Shown piece after piece: positions 2,487 through 23,460 of a DNA stretch of 26,554 nt. The position numbers and the translations under genes are program-made. The stretch spans positions 1 to 26,554 of the forward strand of contig CAYMJZ010000001.1 of assembly GCA_964391445.1 (NCBI GenBank), read 5' to 3'. The notes under the pieces are model-generated. The model was not told the DNA's origin, made no database searches, and saw only the letters and a program-made list of their open reading frames with translations. How positions within the stretch are numbered: the first letter of the stretch is position 1; every line of letters starts with the position of its first letter. This DNA comes from Candidatus Woesearchaeota archaeon (lineage in GTDB: Archaea; Nanobdellota; Nanobdellia; Pacearchaeales; GW2011-AR1).

Positions 2487-2629
2487 AGCAATAGATGAAT
2501 TTCTTCTATATAAGGGTTGTGTTTATCCAACAACAGATTTTCTGGATAACCTATTCTTTGATAAATCCATCAAAATATTATTGATAAAATAATAAAAACA
2601 ATTAAAAAGGCTTATTTGTCAGAATTTTC

Positions 2630-3274
2630 ATGAACAGAAATTTGTTCTTAGATTATGGCGAACTTCTTTTCGCTTATCGTTTCAACCCAGCTACTCTTAG
2701 TAGGGCTCATCAACTAATGTTGCCTCAATTAGGAAGAGATTTTAGATTAGAAGATTTATCCACTGCACATAACCAAGCCATCCAAACTTATCTAAGAGCT
2801 AGGAAATCAGGCCAAGAATGGACAATGGAAAGAATTATGAGGCTATTCTTAGTTAATTTAGGAGTTAGGGATGAATCTCTTGTTGAAAAAGCAGTAAATA
2901 ATTACAAACTACATGACCATGATGAATTTCCATTACCAGGAATACCTCAATTAGTTCCTGAACTAACAAGAGACTTTTCATTACATATAGTTTCCAATCT
3001 TCCACATAATTCGCCTTTGAATACATTGACCAAATATGGTTTATCAGGACATTTCGCAACCACTACATTTTCCTATGAAGCAGGATTTAGAAAACCAAGA
3101 CCTGAGATATACCAGTTAGCATTACAAAGAGCAGGGTGCAGACCTGAAAGTGGAATATTCATTTCTCATGATCAAGAAGAGGTAGATGGAGCCAAAAGAG
3201 TTGGTATGCAAGCTTATCTTGCAACTAACGCGGATGAAATCCGAGGAGTTCTCCATGAAAATCCTGTACACTAA
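2630..3274 (+). CDS. HAD-superfamily hydrolase (subfamily IA-like phosphatase)
   Basis: Motif I FLDYGELL, motif II IVSN, motif III GFRKPRPEIY, and a degenerate motif IV FISHDQEEVDGAKRVGM. Confidence 0.85.
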   Translation: MNRNLFLDYGELLFAYRFNPATLSRAHQLMLPQLGRDFRLEDLSTAHNQAIQTYLRARKSGQEWTMERIMRLFLVNLGVRDESLVEKAVNNYKLHDHDEFPLPGIPQLVPELTRDFSLHIVSNLPHNSPLNTLTKYGLSGHFATTTFSYEAGFRKPRPEIYQLALQRAGCRPESGIFISHDQEEVDGAKRVGMQAYLATNADEIRGVLHENPVH

Positions 3275-4361
3275 TATCAGCCCAATTACTAATGCTTATA
3301 CAAATATTAATCATCTATTCTATCTAAAAAACCAAAAGCCTCAGAAAGTTTACTTGTGCATCTGGGACAATTATTTCTTTGAAAACACTATATTAGATCA
3401 ACATGATGAAAATTCTAAGAAAGAAACTCTAGAAAATAATGTAAAACTGCTGCAAAAAGTGATGGATCACTTAAGTATCAATTATAGAATCATTTACTTG
3501 TCAGATATGTGGCATAGACTTTTCAAAAACCCTAAAACTGCCAAAATTTACCAAAAAATCTTATCTTTAATCAATTTGGAACAATTAAGCAAAGGTTTTC
3601 TAATGAATTACACTCCATTTGGAGAAATAAGTCTATCAAAAATAAATTACATAATCGTAGATTACCTTGTATCAATTTATTTGCAAGAAATAGCACCTGA
3701 ACTATGCAATAGTCAGCCAACCCATTACTTAACCTCTGAAAGGTTCAAGGTTTTCAAAAGAGATATAGACCATGTCCTTAAACTAAATTCAATCTATTCT
3801 CCACCACTTCCGCTTTTTATTACAAAGGTACCAGTAATAATGCATCAAAAACAAAAGATTATCCCTTCTATGGGAATGTCAGTTGAAACAATTAAGCAGA
3901 TAATAGATTCAAATTATGCAGGCAAACTGCCAGAAAGAAAAGAAATTGAAGATTTGCTGGAAGTCTTATCAGAAGTAAATAGTAAAGTAGAATTAAGTGA
4001 AAAGTTAAGATATAACCAATTTATAGAAGCCTTAGCTAATGAGTTTTACACTTATTTCGAAAAGATTAATGATATAGCAGCAAAAGTCGAGATAAAGAAT
4101 CAGAAAAAGAGCATGTTTGTTTCAAAACATGAAGAATTTAACAAACAAATTAAACCTCTGAACAAAATAAAACTTGAGATACTAAAATTATGTGATGGGG
4201 AAAATACCAGCCTGGATATTTCTAAGAAGAGTGGGATAAAATTAAGCACTGTCTCAACTTATCTAACTCATCTAAAGAATAAAGGGTTACTTGATGAAGG
4301 CAAGAAACCTAAGAGATCGGTAGATAGCATCGTAATAAATTTGGAGTTGATGGGAGATTAA
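3255..4361 (+). CDS. Degenerate class Ic aminoacyl-tRNA synthetase (TyrRS-like) fold fused to a C-terminal ArsR-like winged helix; putative regulator
   Basis: Start moved to ATG 3255 (SD GAGGAG at 3243-3248), giving 368 aa. The N-terminal ~220 aa align by eye with archaeal TyrRS (see findings). The C-terminus LEILKLCDGENTSLDISKKSGIKLSTVSTYLTHLKNKGLL is a clear wHTH. Confidence 0.65.
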   Translation: MKILYTNISPITNAYTNINHLFYLKNQKPQKVYLCIWDNYFFENTILDQHDENSKKETLENNVKLLQKVMDHLSINYRIIYLSDMWHRLFKNPKTAKIYQKILSLINLEQLSKGFLMNYTPFGEISLSKINYIIVDYLVSIYLQEIAPELCNSQPTHYLTSERFKVFKRDIDHVLKLNSIYSPPLPLFITKVPVIMHQKQKIIPSMGMSVETIKQIIDSNYAGKLPERKEIEDLLEVLSEVNSKVELSEKLRYNQFIEALANEFYTYFEKINDIAAKVEIKNQKKSMFVSKHEEFNKQIKPLNKIKLEILKLCDGENTSLDISKKSGIKLSTVSTYLTHLKNKGLLDEGKKPKRSVDSIVINLELMGD

Positions 4362-4362
4362 A

Positions 4363-5619
4363 ATGACAGATCTAGTATTAATTAACAGTCCATTACAAAG
4401 ATATGAAAGAGCGAATAAGCCTTATTATTTTACAACTGCTCCAATAGGTTTAGGATATTTAGCTACCGTAGCCAGAAAACTTGGTTATCAAGCAGAAATA
4501 GTAGATGCGGAAGCAGAAAAACTGAGCCCAGATGAGATAGTAGAAAGAGTATCTGCAACAAACCCAAAGAGAGTAGGAATTAACATATTTTCAACTAATC
4601 ATCAATTATCTTTAGGAATATTAGATCAAATTGAAGCTCCTGTTAAGTTAGTCGGAGGACCACAAGCTACTTTACAACCAGAAAGAGTCAAGGGAGATTA
4701 TACTGTTGTTACAGGAGAAGCAGAAGAAGCTTTACCAAACCTCTTAAGAGACAATCCGAAAGGGATAGTTCATGGAGGAATAGTTCACGATCTTGATAGA
4801 TTACCTTTTGTAGATAGAGGTTTGTTCTCAAACGATCCTTACAGTACAAAAGGAGGCAAAGAAGCTTCCATGAGTACTGCAAGAGGATGTAGATTTAGTT
4901 GTGCTTATTGCTCTGTCCCTACAATTAATGGAAGAAAGATGAGGGCAAGATCTGTAGATAATGTTCTTGATGAAATAGAAGTTTTACAGCAAGGTGGAGT
5001 AAGAAGAATACATTTTATTGATGACTTATTCAATTATTCCAAAGATAGGGTCAGAGAATTCGCAGAAGGTCTTCAAAGAAGGGAAGTTAGGGTAGGTTGG
5101 CGAGCTTTATGCAGAACAGATAATCTTGATGAAAAATTACTTGAAGAAATGAAAGCAGCAGGTTGTTACAAACTTGCATTTGGAGTAGAGTCAGCAACAT
5201 CTAGGATATTGAAGTATATTGGAAAAAGTCAAGATACAGATCATACTAAAGCAGTTTTCAGAAAGTGTAAGGAATTAGGAATTGAAAGCAAAGGTTTCTT
5301 TACAATTGGATATCCTACTGAAACAAAAGATGAAATTGAGGAAACTATAAGGTTTGCTTTGGATCTTGAAGCTTCTGATGCAAGATTTATGGTGGTTAGA
5401 GCATTTCCAGAGACTAGATTATATGCAGATATGTTGGCAAAAGGATTTACCCATGAACAATTAGACACATACCATCAGTTTGAAACAGGTGGAGAACATG
5501 TTAAATACCATGTTATGAATATACATTCATTAAATGGAATGCCTATGGAAGAGCTAGATGAGTATGTCCGAAAAGCATATGAACGGTTCAATCTTCAACA
5601 AAAAGGAGTTGCAAAATGA
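4363..5619 (+). CDS. B12-binding-domain radical SAM protein (class B methylase-like)
   Basis: CxxxCxxC motif in TARGCRFSCAYC. N-terminal cobalamin-binding-like segment PIGLGYLA..IVDA..VGGPQAT, plus FIDDLF and FGVESAT motifs. Confidence 0.92.
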   Translation: MTDLVLINSPLQRYERANKPYYFTTAPIGLGYLATVARKLGYQAEIVDAEAEKLSPDEIVERVSATNPKRVGINIFSTNHQLSLGILDQIEAPVKLVGGPQATLQPERVKGDYTVVTGEAEEALPNLLRDNPKGIVHGGIVHDLDRLPFVDRGLFSNDPYSTKGGKEASMSTARGCRFSCAYCSVPTINGRKMRARSVDNVLDEIEVLQQGGVRRIHFIDDLFNYSKDRVREFAEGLQRREVRVGWRALCRTDNLDEKLLEEMKAAGCYKLAFGVESATSRILKYIGKSQDTDHTKAVFRKCKELGIESKGFFTIGYPTETKDEIEETIRFALDLEASDARFMVVRAFPETRLYADMLAKGFTHEQLDTYHQFETGGEHVKYHVMNIHSLNGMPMEELDEYVRKAYERFNLQQKGVAK

Positions 5620-6023
5620 AAATATATGTGGCCTATAAGTTGAGCGGAGTAGATTTCACAATTTTAAAGAAACGTCTAGAAGAAGTTTCTAAGATCATAG
5701 AAGAACTTGGGCATAAAAGCTTCATTTTTGTAAGAGATATACAACAATGGAAACCAGGAGGAATGGAACCTAAAGAAATAATGAAAAAAGCATTTGATCA
5801 AATGAAGAAGTGTGATGCAATTATCTCAATAATAGAGACTCAAGAAAAAGGAGAGGGTCTATTAATAGAAAGCGGAATGATGAAAGGATTGGGCAAGAAA
5901 GTTATTGTAGCATCAGGTCCTGAGGGAAGAGGATTTATGCTTAAAGGTATGGCCGATGAGTCTTTTGACTTCAAAGAGATTGATGAATTTAAGAAAAAAT
6001 TGGCAAAAATACTAAAGAATTAG
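5616..6023 (+). CDS. Nucleoside 2-deoxyribosyltransferase / nucleotide N-glycosidase-like protein
   Basis: KIYVAY start, CDAIISII, and GLLIESGMMKGLGKKVIV containing the family catalytic Glu pattern (G..xExG.a.a.gKpv). ATGA overlap with the radical SAM gene and SD AAGGAG upstream. Confidence 0.75.
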   Translation: MKIYVAYKLSGVDFTILKKRLEEVSKIIEELGHKSFIFVRDIQQWKPGGMEPKEIMKKAFDQMKKCDAIISIIETQEKGEGLLIESGMMKGLGKKVIVASGPEGRGFMLKGMADESFDFKEIDEFKKKLAKILKN

Positions 6024-6077
6024 TTTTGATGAATTCGTGAAGCCAGCATTAATATAAAATAAATATCTTAATCTTAT

Positions 6078-6374
6078 ATGAAAAGCACAGAAAAACAAAT
6101 CCGTGAAGATGTGCTCTCTTATCTTCAACCAAAAAACACTCTTCAAATAAAAGGAAGGTTGTGTTATAAAGAAAGGGTGGGGGCTTGGAATATACTTCAT
6201 TTAAGAAAGGAGATACTTACATTATTTCCAGAATTAAGACAAAAACGTCAAAACTTTGGATACGCGATGTATTACTCAAGAGATTCTAAAGAAACAAAGA
6301 AAATGTTGGAGCAGTTAGAAAAACAAGGAGTAGTACCTATTATTCTTTTATTGGGCAGAGTTAAAGAAAATTAA
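6078..6374 (+). CDS. Hypothetical protein (98 aa)
   Basis: Open frame with TTAATATA at 6049-6056 (-29..-22). No family recognised; only a faint AbrB-like look. Confidence 0.6.
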   Translation: MKSTEKQIREDVLSYLQPKNTLQIKGRLCYKERVGAWNILHLRKEILTLFPELRQKRQNFGYAMYYSRDSKETKKMLEQLEKQGVVPIILLLGRVKEN

Positions 6375-6410: not shown

Positions 6411-6548
6411 ATGGAAGGGTTAGCTAAATGTGAAGGATGCGGAAAATTAGTTTCTGAAGATAAAATTGATCGCTATGGTGAATGTAATGACTGTAGGGCT
6501 TCGGATAGAGCCGGAGAAATGACTGTTGGAGACTTAGGTGGTAAATAA
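6411..6548 (+). CDS. 45-aa zinc-finger microprotein (CxxC-x14-CxxC)
   Basis: MEGLAKCEGCGKLVSEDKIDRYGECNDCRASDRAGEMTVGDLGGK*, with TTTATAAA at 6382-6389 (-29..-22). Below the ORF-track length cutoff. Confidence 0.75.
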   Translation: MEGLAKCEGCGKLVSEDKIDRYGECNDCRASDRAGEMTVGDLGGK

Positions 6549-6601
6549 TAAAGAAACCTATAGATATATAAGTTTAGGGACATACATTGTCTTAGAGGTG
6601 A

Positions 6602-7780
6602 ATGATGGAATCTGTTTCAATTAATATATTGGAAAACACTCAGTTAGCTCATTCTCAGTTTAAAGAAGAAAAAAGTCTAGCTTGGAAAGAATTGCCTAAA
6701 AATGCCAACAAACTCCATACTATTTGTAGTTATATGGCTATGTTTCCCCCTTCAGTACCAAATCATTTTATTAGAAAATATTCAAAACCAGGGGATTTTG
6801 TTTTAGATGTATTTTCTGGTAGAGGCACTACTGTTTTAGAAGCTTGTGTAGAAGGAAGAATAGGAATAGGCAATGATAAAAGCCCATTAGCATTTCTTTT
6901 AACAAAGGCTAAAGTAAATGTTCCGTTAAAATCTACTATAATTCGTAGAATTAATGAACTTCAAAGAAATTTTATGAAAGTATCAGAACAAATCGATATA
7001 GCTAATGAAGAAGAAAATATAAAAATGATCTTCCATGATTATACTTTAAAACAATTAGTTTTTTTGAAGAAAGAATTAGACTGGAAGAAAAATAGCGTTG
7101 ATGCATTTATAACGGCTTTAGTGGAAGGGATAATTCATGGAGGTTCTGAAGGTTATCTATCTTTAAGTATGCCTAATACTTTCTCCATGTCCCCCAATTA
7201 TGTAAAAAATTATATCTCAGATAAAAAATTAATAAAACCTAAAAGAGAAACTTTTGATTTGCTCTTAAGAAAACTTGAAAGGTGTTACCAAAGGCCTTGG
7301 CAAAAAGGAATATCTTATAGAAGTGATGCAAGAAAAATCACAAAAATTGAAGATTCCTGTATAGACCTTATAATTACTTCTCCGCCTTATCTTAGAGTTA
7401 TAAAATATGGGCAATATAATTGGATAAGAGTCTGGTTTTTAGGAGAGAATTGTAAAAAGGTAGACCAAAGCTTGTTTTTCTCCCAATCTTTAGATAAATA
7501 CTGTAATTTTATGAAAGAAGTTTTAAAAGAAATGCAAAGAGTCCTGAAACCTAATAGTAAAGCTGTCTTAGTTATAGGGGATGTAAGAAATAAATTTGGA
7601 GATCATATAGAAAATTTGGCCGAACAAGTATGGGAAAGATGCGCTAAACCTCTTGGATTTAATTTAGTAGAACCAATTATTGAGGATATTATAAGTGATA
7701 ACGAAAAAGTATCTAAAATATGGGGCAAAAAACGTGGAAATGCAACAAAAATAGATAGAGTCTTAATAATTGAAAAGTAA
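6602..7780 (+). CDS. Site-specific DNA amino-methyltransferase (alpha motif order, SPPY; probably N4-cytosine)
   Basis: SAM-binding motif I VLDVFSGRGTT lies N-terminal, then a long variable region, then catalytic motif IV DLIITSPPY. SD GAGGTGA at 6595-6601, so the second ATG (6605) may be the true start. Confidence 0.9.
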   Translation: MMESVSINILENTQLAHSQFKEEKSLAWKELPKNANKLHTICSYMAMFPPSVPNHFIRKYSKPGDFVLDVFSGRGTTVLEACVEGRIGIGNDKSPLAFLLTKAKVNVPLKSTIIRRINELQRNFMKVSEQIDIANEEENIKMIFHDYTLKQLVFLKKELDWKKNSVDAFITALVEGIIHGGSEGYLSLSMPNTFSMSPNYVKNYISDKKLIKPKRETFDLLLRKLERCYQRPWQKGISYRSDARKITKIEDSCIDLIITSPPYLRVIKYGQYNWIRVWFLGENCKKVDQSLFFSQSLDKYCNFMKEVLKEMQRVLKPNSKAVLVIGDVRNKFGDHIENLAEQVWERCAKPLGFNLVEPIIEDIISDNEKVSKIWGKKRGNATKIDRVLIIEK

Positions 7781-7782
7781 AT

Positions 7783-8451
7783 CTATCTTTTATTATGTCT
7801 TATTGCATCAAATTGAGACTTAAACTTTTCTTCTAGAATTTTAATAAAAGTTCTTAACTCAATTATTCTCTCCTTTGTAATTGGTTTATTTTGAGAAGAC
7901 TTTCCCCTTATTAGGGATTCTGCATTGTTTTCTTTTAAATAATTTAAAGATTCTTCTACTATATTATTTATGTAATTTAATATCTTATTAAGGGTTCCAA
8001 AATCATATTTGTTTAATTTTAGAAAAGATGCTACATCTAACCAGTTATCAGGTAATGACTTATTTAAAAAATAAGTTTCAAAAATAGGATTTTTAACATA
8101 GACTGAGATCGCCTCATATAAATTAACATTTCTCTTTTCTGATTGGCTTATATCTAAGAGAGACTTTGCCTTAACAAGTCCTAATTGAGTTATTTTATAA
8201 TGATTTGGTCTAGTCCTTTCGATCCAACCCTTACTTACTATCTTTTGTGTCCCCCTAGCCATAACTTCATTCATGACTCTTTTATGATCTGGATATTCTT
8301 CATGGCCTTGGAGACCCCATCTATTTTTATTTAATTTCCAAGCTTCAACTGTTAAATCCCATTCAGTGAATTCTTTAAGAGAATCAGTAGATAATCTGAA
8401 AGCTGCTAACAAGACCTCTTCAGTAGAGCTTAGACTTGTTTTAATATTCAT
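7783..8451 (-). CDS. Winged-helix domain protein with helical C-terminus
   Basis: wHTH-type ending VSKGWIERTRPNHYKITQLG. Overlaps the GHKL gene by 11 bp and converges on the MTase with a 2-bp gap. Confidence 0.65.
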   Translation of the reverse strand: MNIKTSLSSTEEVLLAAFRLSTDSLKEFTEWDLTVEAWKLNKNRWGLQGHEEYPDHKRVMNEVMARGTQKIVSKGWIERTRPNHYKITQLGLVKAKSLLDISQSEKRNVNLYEAISVYVKNPIFETYFLNKSLPDNWLDVASFLKLNKYDFGTLNKILNYINNIVEESLNYLKENNAESLIRGKSSQNKPITKERIIELRTFIKILEEKFKSQFDAIRHNKR

Positions 8452-10798
8452 CTTCTTTATGAGACTGCATTAAGCTATTTATTATTTGTTGTGCCAAATC
8501 TAAAAATTCAGATGATTCAGTTTCAGATTGAGATAATCTTTGCAATGTCTCTATAAAAGTGATGGAAGAATCTGAAATTTTTTGTTTCAGCTTAAGTCTT
8601 TTTAGTATTTCAAAACACTTTACTAAAAGAAAGTCTTGAAAAGTCTTTGATTTCATTCCAACTAATCTTTTTTCTGTACCCATTTCCCTAATTTTTTTAG
8701 CTTCCTTACTACGCGCATTAATCCAAATTATTGCTGGAGGAATATTAAGCCAAAATGGTTCTGAATCAATGATTGTAGGATAAGATTCACCTGCAGGAAT
8801 AGTTCTTTGATTTTCAGGCCAGTTTTCTCTTCCAGGGGCTATATCTCCACAAAACATTATCAAAGGAATATCAGAACTATTTTTATCTTCTGTTTTTTCT
8901 TTTCCAACTTTTAATAGTATTTTTTTAAAATCTTCTTCTCCTTCGCCATATCTTATTCTTATAGTTGCAATACCTTCCTGAGTTCCAGCAATAAACGTAC
9001 CAGATCGATTTATTTTACCCATCCCTTCCTCATCAATAGAAGTCTCAAAAAAAACATTTTCTTTCATTTGACCATCTTCAGTAATTCCTATGATATTTAT
9101 ATCAAATCTCTCTCCTTGTTTAATTAACCTATTTTCGTAATTAACTTGAATATCCTTCAGTTTAACAATATGCACCTCCACCTTATTAGATTTTATCTTA
9201 GCATCTCTGGTTTCTAGGTGGGCTTTTGTTATACCATCTTGCTCACCCTTAATTGAATTTCTAGTTATCAAATCAACAATGTCTCTTTCAGAGTTAATAA
9301 AAAATGGTGGCAGGGATTTCAAGGGAAGTCTCTTTTCTTTATCTAATTCATATCCCTTAATAATAATTGGAACATTTACACCATGAGCTATTTTTAATAC
9401 CTGAGTTTCTTTAGATTCTAAGATTATTTCATCCAATCTTTGACCCCATTTAATATTTATTTCTCTTTTTCTTTGAGAATTATTTTCTCCATCATTTAGA
9501 TTGTTTTCGTTATTTTGTTCTAAAAATTTAGACATTAATTCCCTAATTTTGTCAAGTGCCTTTGAAGCTTTTAATTTATCTTCACTAGACTCCTTCTCTG
9601 ATTGTAGTTCCTGAATATTGGAGATTACCTCGTTTAACATTTTAATAGTCCAGTGACGAAGAGCCCTAGTTAAAGCTGAATCTACTAATGTCATTCTAGT
9701 AGAGCCATCCTGATATTCCTCGGTTAATGCTGCACAAACAAGTTTGGCATGTATAAAACCAGACATAGTAGTAGGAGCCAGGTCAGCAATACTCCAATTG
9801 GCCACAATATTTCGATTATTCCATATTCGGACCACATTTCTAGCCTTTAATGTATCTGTGTTTCGTAAATTTTGATTGCAAGGAAAAATCTGTAATCCAT
9901 CTTTGTCAGTTACATTCAGCTTGATAATCTCTCCAGTTGTAGGATCCTCCAACTCATTTGGTAGTTGCAAAAACTTGATCTCTTTTAATTCAGACATAGG
10001 TTCTAATTCGGTAACTTCTAAAGGTTTGGGATAAACAAGTTTGCTCCCTTTTTGAACCCAAACAAAGCAGGTTTCAATAGTGAGAGAAGCTTGTGCATGA
10101 GACATTAAATCTGCAGGAACCATTCTTATTTTCCTGTCTCTAGTAAACTCATCTACTTTCTTCCAGTCCTTTAAGTCATACAAATGAACTAATGTAAATG
10201 ACTTTCTTTTTAGAAAAGAATTTTTAGCATCTAATGGAAGTTGATCAAAACTTATGCCAAATGGTTCTATCTCTTTATTCAAAACTTTTTTGAAATCTTC
10301 ATCCTTTAGATCACTTATTAAATCTTTATCTTTTGTTTTAAAAGTTACTGTTTTATATTTAAGATCTTTAAGATCGTTAATAAAACCTTTTTTGTTTATC
10401 TTTCCATTAATATAACCGCATAGACTAGATTTCTTTAAACAGCCCCTTACCATAAAAGATTTACCTCCGTTTCCAAAACCAGCTTCAATATTTTCAGACA
10501 TTTCCTTTCTATTTGCAGTTTGACTATTCCATTCTTCCCATCCATCAAAGTCAGAAAGCTGAGCACCAGCAAAATCAAGAACTCCTAATTGAGTTTTATC
10601 TTCAGAAATAATAACTACAATTTGCCTTTCATTCTTATCTTTTACGTTAAGTCTAAAATAGTGATCCTTACTGTTTTTTATTAATTCTGGTAAACCATCT
10701 TTTATAGATTGATATCTGGAAGATAATTGATCTAAACCATGAATCATATTCATTTTTATTGTTTCAGAAGCCTTAAAATCAATTTCCTTAGCAGTCAT
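8441..10798 (-). CDS. GHKL (MORC/MutL/Hsp90-like) ATPase with coiled coil and two Ig-like (Big_2-type) repeats
   Basis: N-box ELIKNSKD, divergent G1 VLDFAG, G2 AGFGNGGKS, and a strand FTLVHL at the motif IV position. Coiled coil at about aa 390-430. Ig-like segments ..IKGEQDGITKAHL.. and ..INRSGTFIAGTQEGIATIRIRY.. Confidence 0.75.
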   Translation of the reverse strand: MTAKEIDFKASETIKMNMIHGLDQLSSRYQSIKDGLPELIKNSKDHYFRLNVKDKNERQIVVIISEDKTQLGVLDFAGAQLSDFDGWEEWNSQTANRKEMSENIEAGFGNGGKSFMVRGCLKKSSLCGYINGKINKKGFINDLKDLKYKTVTFKTKDKDLISDLKDEDFKKVLNKEIEPFGISFDQLPLDAKNSFLKRKSFTLVHLYDLKDWKKVDEFTRDRKIRMVPADLMSHAQASLTIETCFVWVQKGSKLVYPKPLEVTELEPMSELKEIKFLQLPNELEDPTTGEIIKLNVTDKDGLQIFPCNQNLRNTDTLKARNVVRIWNNRNIVANWSIADLAPTTMSGFIHAKLVCAALTEEYQDGSTRMTLVDSALTRALRHWTIKMLNEVISNIQELQSEKESSEDKLKASKALDKIRELMSKFLEQNNENNLNDGENNSQRKREINIKWGQRLDEIILESKETQVLKIAHGVNVPIIIKGYELDKEKRLPLKSLPPFFINSERDIVDLITRNSIKGEQDGITKAHLETRDAKIKSNKVEVHIVKLKDIQVNYENRLIKQGERFDINIIGITEDGQMKENVFFETSIDEEGMGKINRSGTFIAGTQEGIATIRIRYGEGEEDFKKILLKVGKEKTEDKNSSDIPLIMFCGDIAPGRENWPENQRTIPAGESYPTIIDSEPFWLNIPPAIIWINARSKEAKKIREMGTEKRLVGMKSKTFQDFLLVKCFEILKRLKLKQKISDSSITFIETLQRLSQSETESSEFLDLAQQIINSLMQSHKEDEY

Positions 10799-11766
10799 TC
10801 TATATCTCCTATAATCGTATAATCATTGCGTTTATTTTTTATAATCCCAATTTCACGAAGTAAAGAGATTTTTCCAGAACTAAATGTTTGTGCTAAATTG
10901 TTTATCTGTTTTTCAAAAGCTTTAGGATTATCTTTTTTACCACTCCATGCTTCAATATACTTGATAAAAGAAGGATTCTTTTTGAACCAAGCCCATAAAT
11001 CTTTGTTGCCATTATTTCCATTTTTAATGAAAAAGAATATTTCCTTTAATAAAGTATATTCTTTAAAACCTTTTTTGTCTATTTCTCTTAAATATTGAAG
11101 TAACCATTCACTTTCAACAACTGTTAAAGTCTGATCTTCATAATTCTTTTCATCAAAAACTTTGTTAGACAATCTAGAAAAGGCTAATCCTTCTTCAGTA
11201 GGGCGTATAAGAATATTCTTCCAATCTTCACTCCAAATTTTTTCTCCTTCCATTTTCTTTAGAGGCTTTATCTCAAATAATCCCATTTTATGAAATCCAT
11301 CTATAAAATGATAGACGAGTCTACCAACAGATGAGTCAGCAGTTACATCATTTGGAAAACCCTTAAGTTTGGTGAGTTTATTGTAAAGAATCGTATTTTT
11401 AGCGCATTCTATGAGGTCGAATAAGGAAATATAATCTTTCTTAGTTTCATTTAGTAGATTAGCATTTATTCTAAGCAAAGCTTTTCCAGAAAAAAAGTCA
11501 TTGACCATTCCCCATAAACCAACTATGCTAGTTTCATGATCAGAGATCACCTTTCCCTTTGATAACTTAAGATATGAAGGAATTATTAAATAATCATTCT
11601 TAGATAATTCTTTTGAACCTACATTATCAATTTTAGGAAGAGAATCATTTGTAAACATATGCTTCCCAAAACCGCACAAAGGGCATCTTTCAGAATTTTT
11701 TTGAAAATCAAACTCTGTATTACAGCGACCACATTTCACTCTGTTTTCTTTAGAAAATAATGCCAT
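10795..11766 (-). CDS. Zn-ribbon plus tandem winged-helix-like protein
   Basis: CGRC-x12-CPLC at the N-terminus. Two wHTH-like endings (FHKMGLFEI..IRPTEEGLAF; LLREIGIIKNKRNDYTIIG). ATGA overlap with the GHKL gene. Confidence 0.6.
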   Translation of the reverse strand: MALFSKENRVKCGRCNTEFDFQKNSERCPLCGFGKHMFTNDSLPKIDNVGSKELSKNDYLIIPSYLKLSKGKVISDHETSIVGLWGMVNDFFSGKALLRINANLLNETKKDYISLFDLIECAKNTILYNKLTKLKGFPNDVTADSSVGRLVYHFIDGFHKMGLFEIKPLKKMEGEKIWSEDWKNILIRPTEEGLAFSRLSNKVFDEKNYEDQTLTVVESEWLLQYLREIDKKGFKEYTLLKEIFFFIKNGNNGNKDLWAWFKKNPSFIKYIEAWSGKKDNPKAFEKQINNLAQTFSSGKISLLREIGIIKNKRNDYTIIGDIE

Positions 11767-11904: not shown

Positions 11905-13107
11905 TCAATTTTGAGAAATAGTTTTTAATTGCATGGCTATCTCAACTCTTTTTTCATAAGGAACTATGGAAAATAATTTATCGATCATTTTTTCTACTAT
12001 TCTTATTTTATTGTTTAAATCTTTAATTTCATCTTGCATTATTAACTTTTCATTCTCTGATTTTGTAAGTCTTTGTTCTATTTCCGTCTTAGTGATATCC
12101 ATTAACATATCCTCTTGTGAAATTGTGTCTCGCATGCCTAGAAGTTCAGAGTAATAATGGATTTTCTCAGACTTTTTCCATCCAAACCTATATTTTAATG
12201 CAGATTCTGACTTATATCTAGGTAACCAATAACAGCAGGAATTATGCCTAAAATCATACATAGTTAATTCAGAGTATCTCTGACCAGCTGGACTAATTTT
12301 ATCTCCAAAAAGCTTTTTAGCAAGCCTCTTTAATGTTTTATTAACACTATCATAATTAATAGGAAAAATGTAATCTTCGGCCTGTAAATTCATTTGTTTC
12401 ACATAGATTTTAATTAAATTAGAAGAAAGCATAAGCTTAATTCTTCTGCCAAATGTTTTACTTATTTCCTCCCTGATATTAAGTTCTTTAAAATCATTAT
12501 AAAAATCAGATACTTTTAAGTTTATCAATTCAGTTGGAGCTCTTACTCCCGTATCAAACAAAAACCAAATTAAAACTTCATACTTATACTCCGCATTAAC
12601 ACAAAGTTGCTTTATTTGGTCTTCTGTTAAATATACCCAGTCAGGCTTTTCCTTACTCGTATCTAGATCAACAGTAATATCCCTTATATCAACACCCTTT
12701 TTACGATTAACTTTCATGTACCAATGCCAAAAAGCTTTGAAATCTTTTACATAATCTCCTGCGGTTTTGTAAGTTTTACCGTTTTTTCTTTTTACAACCC
12801 CATTACGAATATCTGAAAGTAAAGCAAATAAATGTTGCTCTTCCAATTCAGTAATATTAAGATGAAATCTTTCCTGTAATCCTCTAACAAGACCTACTAA
12901 ACGTATACTTAATGTGCTTAAACGCATAGGACTTCTTCCGCCTTTTTTATTAGTTGAAGCTACATTAAGCCCTTGTTCCATATCTTGAAGGTATTGCATA
13001 ATAATTTGAGAATTGGCGCGTGTCAAGCCTGAAATGCCGTTTTCTAAGGCTTTGTCTTTCCACTTTAGATATTTCTCTTTAGTTTTGTAAGGATCGATCT
13101 TAACCAT
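11905..13107 (-). CDS. Tyrosine recombinase/integrase with C-terminal coiled coil
   Basis: Catalytic set: R in FDTGVRAPTEL, K in SKTFGR, YDFRH (YxxR variant of HxxR), W in RFGW, and Y in IHYY. Confidence 0.9.
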   Translation of the reverse strand: MVKIDPYKTKEKYLKWKDKALENGISGLTRANSQIIMQYLQDMEQGLNVASTNKKGGRSPMRLSTLSIRLVGLVRGLQERFHLNITELEEQHLFALLSDIRNGVVKRKNGKTYKTAGDYVKDFKAFWHWYMKVNRKKGVDIRDITVDLDTSKEKPDWVYLTEDQIKQLCVNAEYKYEVLIWFLFDTGVRAPTELINLKVSDFYNDFKELNIREEISKTFGRRIKLMLSSNLIKIYVKQMNLQAEDYIFPINYDSVNKTLKRLAKKLFGDKISPAGQRYSELTMYDFRHNSCCYWLPRYKSESALKYRFGWKKSEKIHYYSELLGMRDTISQEDMLMDITKTEIEQRLTKSENEKLIMQDEIKDLNNKIRIVEKMIDKLFSIVPYEKRVEIAMQLKTISQN

Positions 13108-14765: not shown

Positions 14766-15347
14766 ATGGACTTTGAAAAGAAATTAAAGATTCTAAACCC
14801 TGAAGTTAAGAAAAATATCTCAAAGTTAATAAAAGAAATAGAAAAAAACATAGATTATCTTTACGACTTAGCAACAATAGATGAAAAAACTGAGGTTTAC
14901 AACAATAAATTCTTCAGAACAATTTCTGAAATGGAGCTAGATAAAGCAAAAAGAGGAATTGAGCCATTGAGTCTAATGATAATAGATTTAGATAATTTCA
15001 AAAAGTTAAATGATACTTACGGACACCTAGTGGGAGATAAAATGCTCAAAAGACTAGGTTTTGTATTGAAAGAAAATACTCGAAAATATGATATTGTTTC
15101 TAGATTTGGAGGTGAAGAGTTTGTTATTCTCTTACCCAATACAAACATAAAAAGAGCAAGAATAATTTGCGAAAGACTAAGAAAGAAAGTTCAAGCAGAT
15201 AATGAAATGGGTAAATATTCAGTAACCTTCTCTGGAGGCCTAACTGAATATAAAAAAGGCGACAGTGTTAAAAAAATGCAATTAAGAGCAGATAAGGCAG
15301 TTTATATTGCAAAAAAGAAAGGAAAAAATAGAATAGAAGTTTTATAA
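14766..15347 (+). CDS. Stand-alone GGDEF-domain diguanylate cyclase
   Basis: DEKTEVYN, IIDLDNFKKLNDTYGHLVGD, I-site RKYD five residues before the active site GGEEF, SGG and ADKAVYIAKKKGKN. TATA CTTAAATA at 14737-14744. Confidence 0.93.
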   Translation: MDFEKKLKILNPEVKKNISKLIKEIEKNIDYLYDLATIDEKTEVYNNKFFRTISEMELDKAKRGIEPLSLMIIDLDNFKKLNDTYGHLVGDKMLKRLGFVLKENTRKYDIVSRFGGEEFVILLPNTNIKRARIICERLRKKVQADNEMGKYSVTFSGGLTEYKKGDSVKKMQLRADKAVYIAKKKGKNRIEVL

Positions 15348-22269: not shown

Positions 22270-23460
22270 CTAATAGCAATTCTTACAAACAAAGCTTCTT
22301 CCACCTGCATCAGCATCCATAAATCTCTTATTCTTAAACTGTTTACACTTAACACATACACGACCGCATTGCTTACATATTCTCCTCTTTGTAACTGCAC
22401 ATTGATGCCTTAGGCAAGTCTCACAAGATATTTCGCTACAATCTTCACATCTTGCCCCACAATTTCTACAAACAAGATGATTCCCATTGCAAAGAATTAT
22501 TTCATTTAAGGAATTCTTACACAGGTCACATGTAGGAAGATCAATCTTATTTTTTAATGGATCAAATTTAACAACTACTAACCTGGTAACTCCAGCATTA
22601 GATTTGAAAAAAGATTCTATTGAATAGATAGGGTAATCTATAATTGTTGTAGTAATTAGTTTTGTATTAAGCCTTAATGCATGTTTTTTCTGTTCATTTT
22701 GTATAAACAAGTCTCTTTCGGTAACAAACTGTATTTTCTGTCTTTCAAGCTCTACCGGATCTTTAGACTTCAATGCTCCAGACTTTATCCTTGCAATCTG
22801 TTCATCAATTTCCTTGACTTGTTGCTCATGATATGAATTTATTCTAGCAATTTCGTTAGAAAGACTTGAGTCTAATTCTGAAGCAATTTTATTAGTCCTA
22901 GCATTTATAGAACTCTTGATATGTTCTTTAGCGATAGAATAATAGTCTCTTAATTCCGTTATTTCAATATCTTTCTTATTTGTATTAGAAACACTAAATC
23001 TGCTAAGATCTGGATTAACAATAGCCCCTTCGTCAACAAAAACCTCATTTATCAATTTCTCTTCTTCATTCAAATACTTGTAAGTTGTTTGAAATGTAAA
23101 CTTAAACATAAAATTATGAGAAGATTCAGCAGTTGCTTTTACAATAGAACAATTATGAAGCTTAAACTGCTCTTTAATGAAAGAATCTACATTTAATTTA
23201 TAGTTTAATGAAGTTAAAACTGCATCTCCTGAATTGTCTAAATAAGCTTTCATCATTTTAAGCATATAACTTTCGGGAGCAACTAATTCTCCTGTTGAAG
23301 AAAAATTTTTATCAAAAACAATTCTATAAGGTTCATTCTTACCATAAAATTTCTGAAATTTAGGTGGAACTTCACTAACTTCAAGATAATCGGTACTTTC
23401 AGAAACCTTAGCTCCTAACTCTCTAAAAAACTGAATGCTAAACTGCCTCAACTGTTCCAT
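22270..23460 (-). CDS. YqhG-like protein with C-terminal multi-zinc-finger region
   Basis: Start at ATG 23460 (SD GGAGG 6 nt upstream), overlapping the SNF2 stop region. Central coiled coil, then repeated CxxC pairs (CDLC, CRNC, CEDC, CETC, CKQC, CVKC, CKNC). The YqhG label rests on synteny plus weak N-terminal resemblance. Confidence 0.6.
   Translation of the reverse strand: MEQLRQFSIQFFRELGAKVSESTDYLEVSEVPPKFQKFYGKNEPYRIVFDKNFSSTGELVAPESYMLKMMKAYLDNSGDAVLTSLNYKLNVDSFIKEQFKLHNCSIVKATAESSHNFMFKFTFQTTYKYLNEEEKLINEVFVDEGAIVNPDLSRFSVSNTNKKDIEITELRDYYSIAKEHIKSSINARTNKIASELDSSLSNEIARINSYHEQQVKEIDEQIARIKSGALKSKDPVELERQKIQFVTERDLFIQNEQKKHALRLNTKLITTTIIDYPIYSIESFFKSNAGVTRLVVVKFDPLKNKIDLPTCDLCKNSLNEIILCNGNHLVCRNCGARCEDCSEISCETCLRHQCAVTKRRICKQCGRVCVKCKQFKNKRFMDADAGGRSFVCKNCY

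What the first reader, a model, noticed from the sequence alone, without database searches (positions are those of the whole stretch)
2630..6023. Four-gene operon HAD + TyrRS-fold regulator + B12-radical SAM + NDT-like glycosidase: possible nucleoside-modification pathway in a reduced-genome archaeon
Seen: tight coupling (20-bp overlap, 1-bp gap, ATGA overlap) and SD motifs before genes 2-4, unlike the leaderless singletons nearby. Established: NDT-fold nucleotide glycosidases (BlsM/MilB, RCL/DNPH1) together with radical SAM enzymes occur in nucleoside-antibiotic pathways (blasticidin, mildiomycin). A B12-radical SAM enzyme plus a phosphohydrolase (OxsB/OxsA) makes oxetanocin. Inference: the operon could make, or detoxify, a modified nucleoside, possibly antiviral or anti-competitor. 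A DPANN-type cell would probably have to obtain cobalamin from its host. I know no described system with this four-gene set.
Basis: partly seen in the sequence, partly recalled or inferred. Interest (0 to 1): 0.75.

Follow-up and report, generated by a model that had tools for sequence, protein, structure and literature searches.

The report
Regulated radical-SAM nucleotide cassette in DPANN
A rare, mobile five-gene cassette of tiny symbiotic (DPANN) archaea combines a radical-SAM enzyme, a nucleotide-cleaving enzyme and an odd hydrolase under a DNA-binding switch built from a dead tyrosyl-tRNA-synthetase; it probably alters a nucleotide, perhaps for conflict with viruses, but no function has been shown.

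Summary
Four tightly coupled genes lie at 2630-6023: a HAD-like hydrolase, a TyrRS-fold + winged-helix protein, a B12-domain radical SAM enzyme and an NDT-fold protein. The unit is really five genes, adding a 98-aa gene at 6078-6374, with two operator-like sites at 2557-2574 and 6025-6042.

The same set recurs in DPANN metagenomes at 33-90% protein identity, always with different flanks, which often hold restriction-modification genes. A second copy sits in this same MAG.

Both predicted folds are confirmed: TyrRS/TrpRS at Z about 15 with the HIGH and KMSKS motifs lost, and BcmB/MilB/DNPH1-like for the NDT protein. A TTTGAT-N6-ATCAAA palindrome travels with the TyrRS-like gene even where the cargo enzymes differ, which supports a regulator role.

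Cargo enzymes across variants are all nucleotide enzymes (NDT-like, DHH, CYTH, thymidylate-kinase-like, NT5C), so a nucleotide substrate is likely.

Weak points:
- The HAD lacks the phosphatase Asp+2.
- OxsB similarity is negligible.
- Cobalamin use is untested.
- The antiviral role rests on gene context only.

I found no paper describing this cassette. Earlier notes of this scan reported the same family in other genomes.

The parts
2557..2574 (.). Operator-like palindrome O1, TTTGATAAATCCATCAAA, 55 nt upstream of the HAD start codon
   Evidence: It matches TTTGAT-N6-ATCAAA perfectly. The full 18-mer TTTGATGAATTCATCAAA stands at the same distance in L050, L052 and the MAG's second copy (L049). 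A site of the same half-sites (TTTGATAAATTTATCAAA / TTTGATAAACCCATCAAA) also lies upstream of gene-2 homologues with other cargo (L041, L044). Background is 0.1% of 200-nt windows.
2600..2610 (+). TATA-like box AATTAAAAAGG centred about 25 nt upstream of the HAD ATG; implies a leaderless or near-leaderless first gene
   Evidence: Read from the sequence and conserved in L050 and L049. Its promoter function is inferred.
2630..3274 (+). HAD-superfamily protein (214 aa) with non-canonical motifs: motif I D8-Y9-G10 (no Asp+2) and motif IV with invariant His180 in place of the first Asp
   Evidence: Pfam HAD_2 at 42 bits. Family alignment A3. Nearest solved structure is PH0459 (1x42), E 3.8e-18, whose motif I is DFVGT.
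3255..4361 (+). Gene 2 (368 aa): class Ic aaRS (TyrRS/TrpRS) fold at residues 1-280 with degenerate HIGH (N17-x-N19-H20) and KMSKS ((E/G)207-M-S) motifs, plus a C-terminal winged helix (about 290-368). Proposed ligand-sensing transcription factor.
   Evidence: Model pLDDT 89.5. Foldseek's top 43 hits are all TyrRS/TrpRS. VIA Z 14-15 over 245-265 residues. Motif columns. wHTH matches to ArsR/Csa3 types.
4363..5619 (+). B12-binding-domain radical SAM enzyme (418 aa) with invariant C176-x3-C180-x2-C183
   Evidence: Pfam Radical_SAM 96.6 bits and B12-binding 49.7 bits. Alignment A4. Far below every NCBIfam equivalog cut-off. Nearest solved structure is AprD4 (6fd2), E 1e-22.
5616..6023 (+). NDT-fold protein (135 aa), closest to the nucleotide N-glycosidases BcmB, MilB and DNPH1. 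Invariant D67, E80-G81 and E85-x-G87.
   Evidence: Pfam PF05014 at 33.1 bits against a cut-off of 28.8. Alignment A2. Profile against PDB: BcmB (4jen) at 1.6e-4. Model pLDDT 88, with Foldseek top hit BcmB at 6.7e-7, then NDTs, MilB and DNPH1/Rcl.
6025..6042 (.). Operator-like hybrid site O2, TTTGATGAATTCGTGAAG, ending 6 nt before the TATA-like box TTAATATAAAA (6049-6059) of the small gene
   Evidence: The same site and spacing are conserved in L052, L050 and the second copy on C17. The same GTTCAC-N6-ATCAAA hybrid abuts the TATA box upstream of the operon in L035, L012 and L037.
6078..6374 (+). Fifth gene: small conserved protein (98 aa) of unknown fold. It lies downstream of the NDT gene here, and divergently upstream of the HAD gene in other lineages.
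   Evidence: Homologues occur in L048 (61% identity), L052 (55%), L006 (38%), L003 (33%) and L050 (30%). No Pfam or Atlas match.

Best explanation
This is a horizontally mobile, self-regulated five-gene cassette that most likely tailors a nucleotide.

Regulation (the best-supported part):
- Gene 2 is a transcription factor. Its sensor is a TyrRS/TrpRS-derived domain that has lost the ATP motifs but keeps an invariant pocket. Its winged helix is proposed to bind the TTTGAT-N6-ATCAAA-type operators in front of the HAD gene and of the small gene.
- A small-molecule ligand, nucleoside-like or amino-acid-like, would switch the cassette.

Enzymology (inferred):
- The B12-domain radical SAM enzyme modifies a nucleotide.
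- The translationally coupled NDT-fold enzyme, closest to BcmB, MilB and DNPH1, cleaves the N-glycosidic bond of a nucleoside monophosphate. It would either release a modified base, following MilA/MilB or BcmA/BcmB logic, or destroy the product.
- The non-canonical HAD, and a DHH phosphoesterase in variants, handle the phosphate or sugar side.

Role: because the cassette is rare, patchy, duplicated and usually sits beside restriction-modification genes, conflict with viruses, rival elements or the host is the likeliest role.
For: Conservation:
- HAD, gene 2, radical SAM and NDT genes stand in the same order in L003-L007, L035, L050 and L052, at gene-2 identities of 46-88%.
- The MAG's second copy (C17+C33) has all of them too, with gene 2 split across the two contig ends.
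- Only these five genes are shared with the window; the flanks differ.

Rarity:
- The gene-2 family occurs in 13 of 400 genomes of the phylum and in 0 of 27 of the window's own family.
- It has 141 representatives among 1.84 billion proteins.

Regulator:
- Fold and dead motifs.
- The operator travels with gene 2 whatever the cargo.

Nucleotide chemistry:
- NDT fold with catalytic Glu and Asp.
- Variants insert DHH/DHHA1 (L008, L036), add NT5C (L008), or swap in CYTH and a thymidylate-kinase-like gene (L042, L045).
- An overlapping radical SAM-NDT pair persists without gene 2 or HAD in G326 and G229.
- The best phage relative, SF3 gp36, lies between a thymidylate kinase and a NUDIX gene.

Context:
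- Restriction-modification or defence-type genes lie within about 5 kb in the window, L003, L006, L052 and L035.
- A transposase, reverse transcriptase or conjugation ATPase lies near L008 and L050.
Against: - No enzyme activity, ligand or DNA binding has been shown.
- The HAD lacks Asp+2 and a motif-IV Asp, so a simple nucleotidase role is doubtful.
- The radical SAM enzyme belongs to a family greatly expanded in this phylum: relatives occur in 180 of 401 genomes, many in tandem arrays. Family membership alone therefore says nothing about the substrate, and the SF3 match (29% identity) is no closer than those paralogues.
- No PADLOC system matches, apart from a generic 72-bit hit of the radical SAM enzyme.
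- Restriction-modification genes may simply be common in these genomes; no background rate was computed.
- The perfect palindrome is seen in only two independent lineages and the hybrid site in three or four.
- The dimer prediction gave no verdict.
Confidence: 0.55

Rival explanations
1. Housekeeping salvage or pool sanitation. A scavenging DPANN cell uses the cassette to recycle or detoxify foreign or modified nucleotides. DHH would yield NMPs, the NDT-like enzyme would free bases, and the radical SAM enzyme would repair or convert a modified nucleotide. The regulator would sense supply.
For: DNPH1-type enzymes are known pool sanitisers (established knowledge), and the NDT model matches DNPH1/Rcl. 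DHH and NT5C variants fit catabolism. The MAG is small, 0.76 Mb at 83% completeness.
Against: The full cassette occurs in only 3 of 401 sampled genomes, and the gene-2 family in none of 27 genomes of the window's own family. Flanks change between close relatives. A housekeeping salvage route should be more widespread and syntenic.
Confidence: 0.15
2. The radical SAM enzyme acts on a non-nucleotide substrate (lipid, peptide or glycan), and the NDT and HAD genes are unrelated passengers.
For: The best NCBIfam matches are the lipid-type rSAM_ladder_B12 and HpnJ at about 150 bits. B12-radical SAM paralogues are hugely expanded in this phylum.
Against: Those scores are far below the cut-offs of 360 and 578 bits. 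The radical SAM and NDT genes overlap by ATGA and stay paired in a sister clade without the other genes. Every alternative partner is a nucleotide enzyme.
Confidence: 0.1
3. The targets are polymers. The radical SAM enzyme modifies a base in DNA or tRNA, and the NDT-fold protein acts as a glycosylase-like eraser. The winged helix or TyrRS-like domain of gene 2 would guide them to nucleic acid.
For: The cassette lies next to DNA methyltransferases and restriction enzymes. The TyrRS ancestry could in principle retain tRNA binding (inference).
Against: The NDT model is closest to the mononucleotide enzymes BcmB, MilB and DNPH1. The partner enzymes CYTH, kinase, NT5C and DHH act on free nucleotides. 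A conserved promoter-proximal palindrome explains the winged helix better.
Confidence: 0.08
4. Gene 2 is catalytic: an aminoacyl-tRNA-dependent (CDPS-like) or ligase-type enzyme that makes an aminoacyl-nucleoside antibiotic, as in the puromycin or blasticidin class.
For: Cyclodipeptide synthases appear among the fold matches at E about 1e-3. Pocket residues Y15, W37, D38, E43, D136, Y158 and R163 are invariant or nearly so.
Against: HIGH and KMSKS are both lost. True TyrRS/TrpRS match far better than CDPS. The wHTH fusion and the conserved operator fit a regulator. Gene 2 also occurs with quite different cargo.
Confidence: 0.07

Closest known systems
MilA/MilB (mildiomycin) and BcmA/BcmB (bacimethrin): an NMP-modifying enzyme followed by an NDT-fold NMP N-glycosidase
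   Same: The NDT-fold enzyme is closest to BcmB and MilB by profile and by fold. It is tightly coupled to an upstream modifying enzyme.
   Different: The modifier here is a B12-domain radical SAM enzyme, not a ThyA-like hydroxymethylase. There are no downstream glycosyltransferase, methyltransferase or kinase genes. The host is a DPANN archaeon, and the cassette has its own dedicated regulator.
OxsB/OxsA (oxetanocin A): a B12 radical SAM enzyme plus a phosphohydrolase acting on deoxyadenosine phosphates
   Same: A B12-type radical SAM enzyme is paired with hydrolases in a small cassette, with a presumed nucleotide substrate.
   Different: OxsB matches only the radical SAM core at E 6.5e-4, and it is 744 aa against 418 aa here. 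OxsA is an HD-domain enzyme, whereas this cassette has a non-canonical HAD and an NDT-fold protein.
Prokaryotic viperins (pVips) with linked nucleotide kinases; vertebrate RSAD2 + CMPK2
   Same: A radical SAM enzyme sits in defence-island-like contexts with nucleotide-handling partners. Related cassettes carry thymidylate-kinase-like genes.
   Different: Viperins lack the B12 domain and are a different radical SAM clade. No dehydratase activity is shown here. This cassette has an N-glycosidase and no kinase.
BirA (class II aaRS-like biotin ligase fused to a wHTH) and NadR (HTH fused to a HIGH-type nucleotidyltransferase)
   Same: An aaRS-related or nucleotidyltransferase fold is fused to a DNA-binding domain and controls an operon through a ligand made or bound in the old active site.
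   Different: BirA and NadR are still enzymes. Gene 2 is class Ic-derived, has lost HIGH and KMSKS, and carries its wHTH at the C-terminus. No sequence-level link to PF00579 was found.
AprD4 (radical SAM diol dehydratase of apramycin biosynthesis, PDB 6fd2)
   Same: It is the best solved-structure match of the radical SAM enzyme, E 1e-22 over residues 101-364.
   Different: The protein scores 99.9 bits against the NCBIfam AprD4 cut-off of 500. There is no AprD3-type reductase partner and no aminoglycoside context.

Membership tests
Class Ic aminoacyl-tRNA synthetases (TyrRS/TrpRS, PF00579) | Rossmann catalytic fold with CP1 and the helical domain | tested here: met
   Foldseek's top 43 PDB hits are TyrRS/TrpRS, with E down to 4e-7. 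VIA Z 14-15 with 245-265 residues aligned over model residues 1-280.
Class Ic aminoacyl-tRNA synthetases (TyrRS/TrpRS, PF00579) | HIGH signature | tested here: not met
   The position reads N17-x-N19-H20 across 42 homologues: the first His and the Gly are replaced. The register is placed by secondary structure, not by a residue-level structural alignment.
Class Ic aminoacyl-tRNA synthetases (TyrRS/TrpRS, PF00579) | KMSKS loop with a catalytic Lys | tested here: not met
   The loop reads P204-S-x-(E/G)207-M208-S209 with no conserved Lys.
Class Ic aminoacyl-tRNA synthetases (TyrRS/TrpRS, PF00579) | Sequence-family membership | tested here: not met
   No Pfam PF00579 hit. The profile search of 1.84 billion proteins returned only this family and wHTH fragments. 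The MAG has two true PF00579 genes elsewhere.
Winged-helix transcription factors (ArsR/Csa3-type) | C-terminal wHTH plus a cognate operator | tested here: inconclusive
   Several wHTH families match at 18-23 bits, just under their cut-offs. Csa3/CasR match at E about 2e-6 and an ArsR structure at 0.006. A conserved palindrome lies upstream. Binding itself was not tested.
Cobalamin-dependent (class B) radical SAM enzymes | CxxxCxxC cluster motif and an N-terminal B12-binding Rossmann domain | tested here: met
   C176, C180 and C183 are invariant. PF02310 scores 49.7 bits against a cut-off of 32.1, and PF04055 scores 96.6 bits.
Cobalamin-dependent (class B) radical SAM enzymes | Actual cobalamin binding and use | not testable with these tools
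   The nearest structure, AprD4, is (from memory) reported not to use cobalamin. The MAG shows no other B12-domain protein and no BtuC above cut-off.
OxsB family | Full-length similarity including the OxsB-specific N-terminal domain | tested here: not met
   E 6.5e-4, radical SAM core only (residues 169-340); 418 aa against 744 aa.
NDT / DNPH1 / MilB-BcmB family (PF05014) | Pfam score above the gathering cut-off, and the flavodoxin-like NDT fold | tested here: met
   33.1 bits against 28.8. Foldseek hits BcmB at 6.7e-7, then NDTs, MilB and DNPH1, with TM 0.6-0.73.
NDT / DNPH1 / MilB-BcmB family (PF05014) | Catalytic Glu in the GxxxExG motif and the sugar-binding Asp | tested here: met
   E80-G81...E85-x-G87 and D67 are invariant in 29 sequences. 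The motif aligns with BcmB.
NDT / DNPH1 / MilB-BcmB family (PF05014) | Nucleotide (5'-phosphate) versus nucleoside substrate | tested here: inconclusive
   The best matches are NMP glycosidases. The beta1 loop reads AYKLSG with conserved K8 and S10. No structural mapping of the phosphate site was done.
HAD phosphatases | Motif I DxD (nucleophile plus general acid Asp+2) | tested here: not met
   The motif is D8-Y9-G10 and the +2 position is G or E in all six sequences. It aligns with DFVGT of PH0459.
HAD phosphatases | Motifs II (S/T), III (K) and IV (DD/DxxxD) | tested here: inconclusive
   The S/T of motif II and R154-K155 are kept. In motif IV the first Asp is replaced by invariant H180, and an acidic residue is kept at the second position.
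Known anti-phage systems (PADLOC-DB v2) | Match to a system's marker proteins | tested here: not met
   The HAD, NDT and small gene have no hit. The radical SAM enzyme has only a 72-bit hit to candidate PDC-M51A. Gene 2 matches only through its wHTH.

The most novel reading that the evidence does not exclude
A transcription factor whose sensor is a catalytically dead tyrosyl/tryptophanyl-tRNA synthetase switches on a B12-type radical SAM pathway. That pathway makes a previously unknown modified nucleobase or nucleotide analogue used by DPANN archaea against viruses, rival elements or their hosts. This would be both a new class of radical-SAM-based immunity or antibiosis, distinct from viperin, and a new class of one-component regulator.
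Probability: 0.25. Interest if true: 0.85.

Novelty: new variant of a known kind. Interest (0 to 1): 0.68.

Why it matters
- Product: if the radical SAM and NDT pair really makes or destroys an unusual nucleotide, the cassette adds a new chemistry to the small set of nucleotide-based conflict systems (viperin, oxetanocin, MilA/MilB-type). It would do so in DPANN archaea, whose defence and offence biology is almost unknown.
- Regulator: whatever the product, the regulator is of interest on its own. A class I aaRS catalytic domain has been recycled as a ligand sensor, fused to a winged helix, and given a recognisable operator. It travels as a plug-in switch for interchangeable nucleotide-enzyme cargos.
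- Testability: the pieces are small, soluble-looking proteins, so both claims can be tested directly in vitro.

Tried and rejected
- Homodimer prediction of gene 2: no verdict. The single-sequence fold failed at pLDDT about 40. This is not evidence either way.
- hhalign of the gene-2 profile against the MAG's own TyrRS, and against phage SF3 gp35: no signal. The link to aaRS is therefore structural only.
- Profile against PDB sequences for gene 2: only wHTH hits, plus a weak AcrIF14 match that I regard as chance.
- IMG/VR scan with the gene-2 profile: no relatives on viral contigs.
- Atlas look-up of the 98-aa protein: nothing usable. For the radical SAM enzyme it returned only generic B12-radical SAM clusters.
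- AFDB clusters for gene 2: only true TyrRS/TrpRS entries, and no named family with this architecture.
- Literature searches: I found no paper on this gene set or on a TyrRS-like wHTH regulator.
- tRNA genes and flanking direct or inverted repeats as cassette borders: none convincing.
- Oxetanocin-type and AprD4-type membership: rejected on scores.
- A simple nucleotidase role for the HAD: doubted on its motifs.
- 5'-deoxyadenosine clean-up as the sole role of the NDT-like protein: unlikely. Related B12-radical SAM genes occur in 180 of 401 genomes, but this NDT subfamily in only 24.

Full report
**1. Observation**

The window is AT-rich (about 32% GC). It comes from a 0.76-Mb, 83%-complete MAG whose relatives are labelled Nanoarchaeota, Pacearchaeota or "archaeon".

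Four co-directional ORFs lie at 2630-3274, 3255-4361, 4363-5619 and 5616-6023.
- a 20-nt overlap between genes 1 and 2,
- a 1-nt gap between genes 2 and 3,
- an ATGA overlap between genes 3 and 4.

The ORF lister gives gene 2 an earlier ATG at 3186. However, 40 of 42 homologues start with Met at the position of the 3255 ATG, followed by conserved K-I-I/V-Y-T-N-I-S-P, so 3255 is the start. GGAG-type motifs lie 6-7 nt before genes 2, 3 and 4. Gene 1 has none. It has a TATA-like AATTAAAAAGG centred about 25 nt upstream of its ATG, which fits a leaderless first gene.

**2. The four proteins**

*Gene 1, HAD-like.* It belongs to the HAD superfamily (HAD_2, 42 bits) but is not a standard phosphatase.
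- In six diverged homologues motif I reads D8-Y9-G10, so the general-acid Asp+2 is missing.
- The first Asp of motif IV is replaced by an invariant His180.
- The motif II Ser/Thr and the motif III Lys155 are kept.
- The nearest solved protein is PH0459 of the haloacid-dehalogenase-like branch (E 3.8e-18), whose motif I is DFVGT.

*Gene 2, TyrRS-like + wHTH.* It gave a confident model (pLDDT 89.5).
- Residues 1-280 are a TyrRS/TrpRS fold. The first 43 Foldseek PDB hits are all class Ic synthetases, as are the Swiss-Prot and AFDB-cluster hits. VIA-align gives Z 14-15 over 245-265 residues.
- HIGH has become N17-x-N19-H20, and the KMSKS loop reads (E/G)207-M-S with no lysine. Canonical adenylation is therefore very unlikely.
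- A set of pocket-region residues (Y15, W37, D38, E43, D136, Y158, R163, F167) is invariant or nearly so.
- From motif resemblance only, I-A-D136-Y-L looks like the (Q/M)-A-A-D-I-L helix of TrpRS and TyrRS, whose Asp reads the substrate side chain. This is inference, not a structural mapping.
- Residues 290-368 form a winged helix with sub-threshold ArsR/Csa3-type matches.
- The MAG has two genuine PF00579 genes elsewhere, so gene 2 is not needed for translation.

*Gene 3, radical SAM.* It has an invariant CxxxCxxC motif and an N-terminal B12-binding domain above the Pfam cut-off. It reaches no curated equivalog: the best matches are rSAM_ladder_B12 and HpnJ at about 150 bits, against cut-offs of 360 and 578. 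The nearest structure is AprD4 (E 1e-22). OxsB matches only at 6.5e-4.

*Gene 4, NDT-fold.* It scores above the Pfam cut-off. It carries the invariant E80-G81...E85-x-G87 motif and D67. Its model (pLDDT 88) matches BcmB first, then NDTs, MilB and DNPH1/Rcl. The profile-to-PDB search also ranks BcmB first.

**3. It is a conserved cassette of five genes**

- HAD, gene 2, radical SAM and NDT genes stand in the same order in metagenomic and MAG contigs. Gene-2 identities are 51% (L003-L007), 46% (L035), and 88% and 81% (L050, L052).
- A variant with DHH/DHHA1 inserted before the NDT gene occurs in L008/L009 and L036. In L008/L009 an NT5C gene lies about 2 kb downstream.
- BLAST of all window ORFs against these loci shows that, of the genes around the operon, only five are shared: the four genes plus the 98-aa gene at 6078-6374. 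Everything flanking differs.
- The small gene lies after the NDT gene in the window, L050, L052 and C17. In L003 and L006 it lies divergently upstream of the HAD gene.
- The MAG itself holds a second copy, split over contigs C17 and C33. Identity to the window copy is 90% for the radical SAM enzyme, 85% for gene 2 and 71% for the NDT protein. I cannot tell whether this is a true duplication or a second strain in the bin.

**4. Regulator evidence**

- *Site O1.* About 55 nt upstream of the HAD start, L050, L052 and the C33 copy carry the perfect palindrome TTTGATGAATTCATCAAA. The window has TTTGATAAATCCATCAAA at 2557-2574.
- *Site O2.* A second, hybrid site, TTTGATGAATTCGTGAAG (6025-6042), ends 6 nt before the TATA-like box of the small gene. 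It is conserved with the same spacing in L052, L050 and C17.
- *Other cargos.* TTTGAT-N6-ATCAAA also lies upstream of gene-2 homologues whose neighbours are unrelated (L041, L044). The hybrid GTTCAC-N6-ATCAAA abuts the TATA box 33-36 nt before the first gene in L035, L012 and L037. A related site precedes the radical SAM gene of G258, whose gene 2 lies on another contig.
- *Background.* A perfect 12-base match occurs in 6 of 22 upstream regions, against 0.1% of 1,408 background 200-nt windows. These six come from only two independent lineages.

Together with the obligate-dimer ancestry of TyrRS (established knowledge), this fits a dimeric, probably autoregulated factor acting at or next to the BRE/TATA region. 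Whether it represses or activates is unknown. A homodimer prediction gave no verdict.

**5. What the enzymes act on**

The gene-2 family is rare.
- It occurs in 13 of 400 sampled genomes of the phylum, in 13 genera, and in none of 27 genomes of the window's own family.
- It has 141 representatives among 1.84 billion proteins, none of them a true synthetase.

Its neighbours vary, but wherever they can be named they are nucleotide or phosphate enzymes:

| Arrangement | Loci |
|---|---|
| HAD + radical SAM + NDT | window and relatives |
| the same with DHH added | L008, L036 |
| HAD + DHH, or DHH alone | L012, L040 |
| radical SAM + CYTH | L042 |
| radical SAM + CYTH + thymidylate-kinase-like | L045 |
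| divergently, a P-loop AAA_17/AAA_18 protein (kinase-like), GT9, radical SAM and NUDIX | L010 |

Two further observations point the same way.
- A sister radical SAM clade (about 305 bits) keeps an overlapping NDT-like gene without gene 2 or HAD, in G326 and G229.
- The best phage relative, Streptomyces phage SF3 gp36 (29% identity, full length), lies between a thymidylate kinase and a NUDIX gene near the integrase.

This pattern argues for a nucleotide substrate and for consecutive action of the radical SAM and NDT-like enzymes.

There is one caveat. B12-radical SAM relatives at E<1e-40 occur in 180 of 401 genomes of the phylum, often in tandem arrays. Family membership alone therefore says nothing about substrate, and the SF3 match is no closer than those paralogues.

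**6. Context**

- Restriction-modification or defence-type genes adjoin the cassette in five independent loci:
  - the window: a type II N6/N4 methyltransferase at 6602-7780;
  - L003: HsdR and HsdS;
  - L006: DUF2779, a methyltransferase and ResIII;
  - L052: MvaI/BcnI;
  - L035: a PLD-SNF2 helicase and an Eco57I/MmeI-type enzyme.
- L008 has an IS110 transposase. L050 has a reverse transcriptase and a TraC-like ATPase.
- No PADLOC system matches.
- I computed no background rate for restriction-modification genes, so the defence reading stays contextual.

**7. Mechanism I commit to**

- Shown: the gene order, the folds, the lost ATP motifs, the operator-like sites, and the rarity and mobility of the cassette.
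- Inferred: gene 2 senses a small molecule and gates transcription. The radical SAM enzyme modifies a nucleotide. The NDT-like enzyme then cleaves an NMP glycosidic bond, either releasing a modified base (MilA/MilB-like logic) or removing the product. The atypical HAD, and DHH in variants, process the phosphate or sugar part.

I put about 0.55 on this regulated nucleotide-tailoring reading as a whole, and about 0.25 on the stronger claim that the product is a new antiviral or antibiotic analogue.

Cobalamin use is open. The MAG shows no other B12-domain protein and no BtuC above cut-off. The closest structure, AprD4, is (from memory) not a cobalamin user.

**8. Relation to earlier notes of this scan**

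Notes on other genomes describe the same family: e1-3225841, e1-723302, e1-1164350 and e1-4980425. The hint that regulator and promoter recur with different cargo came from e1-1164350. I tested it here with my own loci and it holds. In the five literature searches I ran, I found no description of this cassette.

Noticed in passing
G000 contigs C17 (L048 8106-11000) and C33 (L049 2-954): A second copy of the whole cassette sits in the same MAG, split across two contig ends. Identity to the window copy is 90% for the radical SAM enzyme, 85% for gene 2, 71% for the NDT protein and 61% for the small gene. Its upstream flank (an AAA_5/vWA module) matches L050 and L052, not the window. It could be a true duplication or a second strain in the bin.
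   Followed up: partly
window 14766-15347 (+): A stand-alone 193-aa GGDEF diguanylate-cyclase-type protein (Pfam 135 bits), preceded by a 180-aa ORF with a weak amidase-like match. GGDEF proteins are unusual in archaea. It has no PADLOC hit.
   Followed up: no
window 6602-7780 (+), 7783-8451 (-), 8441-10798 (-), 10795-11766 (-): A type II N6/N4 DNA methyltransferase (PADLOC MTase_II, 138 bits) lies next to the cassette. It is followed by three opposite-strand ORFs (222, 785 and 323 aa) with no family match. These may include the cognate nuclease.
   Followed up: partly
window 6413-6549 (+): A small ORF of about 45 aa with two CxxC pairs (zinc-ribbon-like) lies between the small cassette gene and the methyltransferase.
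   Followed up: no
window 23438-25231 (-): An SNF2-family helicase (597 aa) has strong PADLOC matches to BrxH and DrmD-type defence helicases (about 220-229 bits). No other BREX or DISARM parts were seen nearby.
   Followed up: no
phylum-wide, e.g. G153:C1:125015-133212, G270:C15:8667-15958: B12-domain radical SAM paralogues of this type are strikingly expanded in the phylum. They occur in 180 of 401 genomes, often in two to four or more copies and in tandem arrays. Their function is unknown, and this raises the question of how these small cells obtain cobamides.
   Followed up: no
window 11905-13107 (-) and L048 4506-5648 (+): A 400-aa protein with no family match has a 52%-identical paralogue a few kb from the second cassette copy. 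The duplicated or mobile region may therefore be larger than the five genes.
   Followed up: no
L035 10035-10331, L036 9835-10125, L008 5063-5269: In the more distant cassette lineages the divergent small gene upstream of the HAD gene is a different protein from the window's 98-aa one. By eye it looks AbrB/SpoVT-like, with a GNxLKKGDEhYYYL motif.
   Followed up: no
L059 (Streptomyces phage SF3, NC_028952.1 25382-28755): This temperate phage carries the genes gp35 (unknown), B12-radical SAM, thymidylate kinase and NUDIX next to its integrase. This looks like a moron-type nucleotide-modifying module. I do not recall a published function for it and ran no literature search on it.
   Followed up: partly
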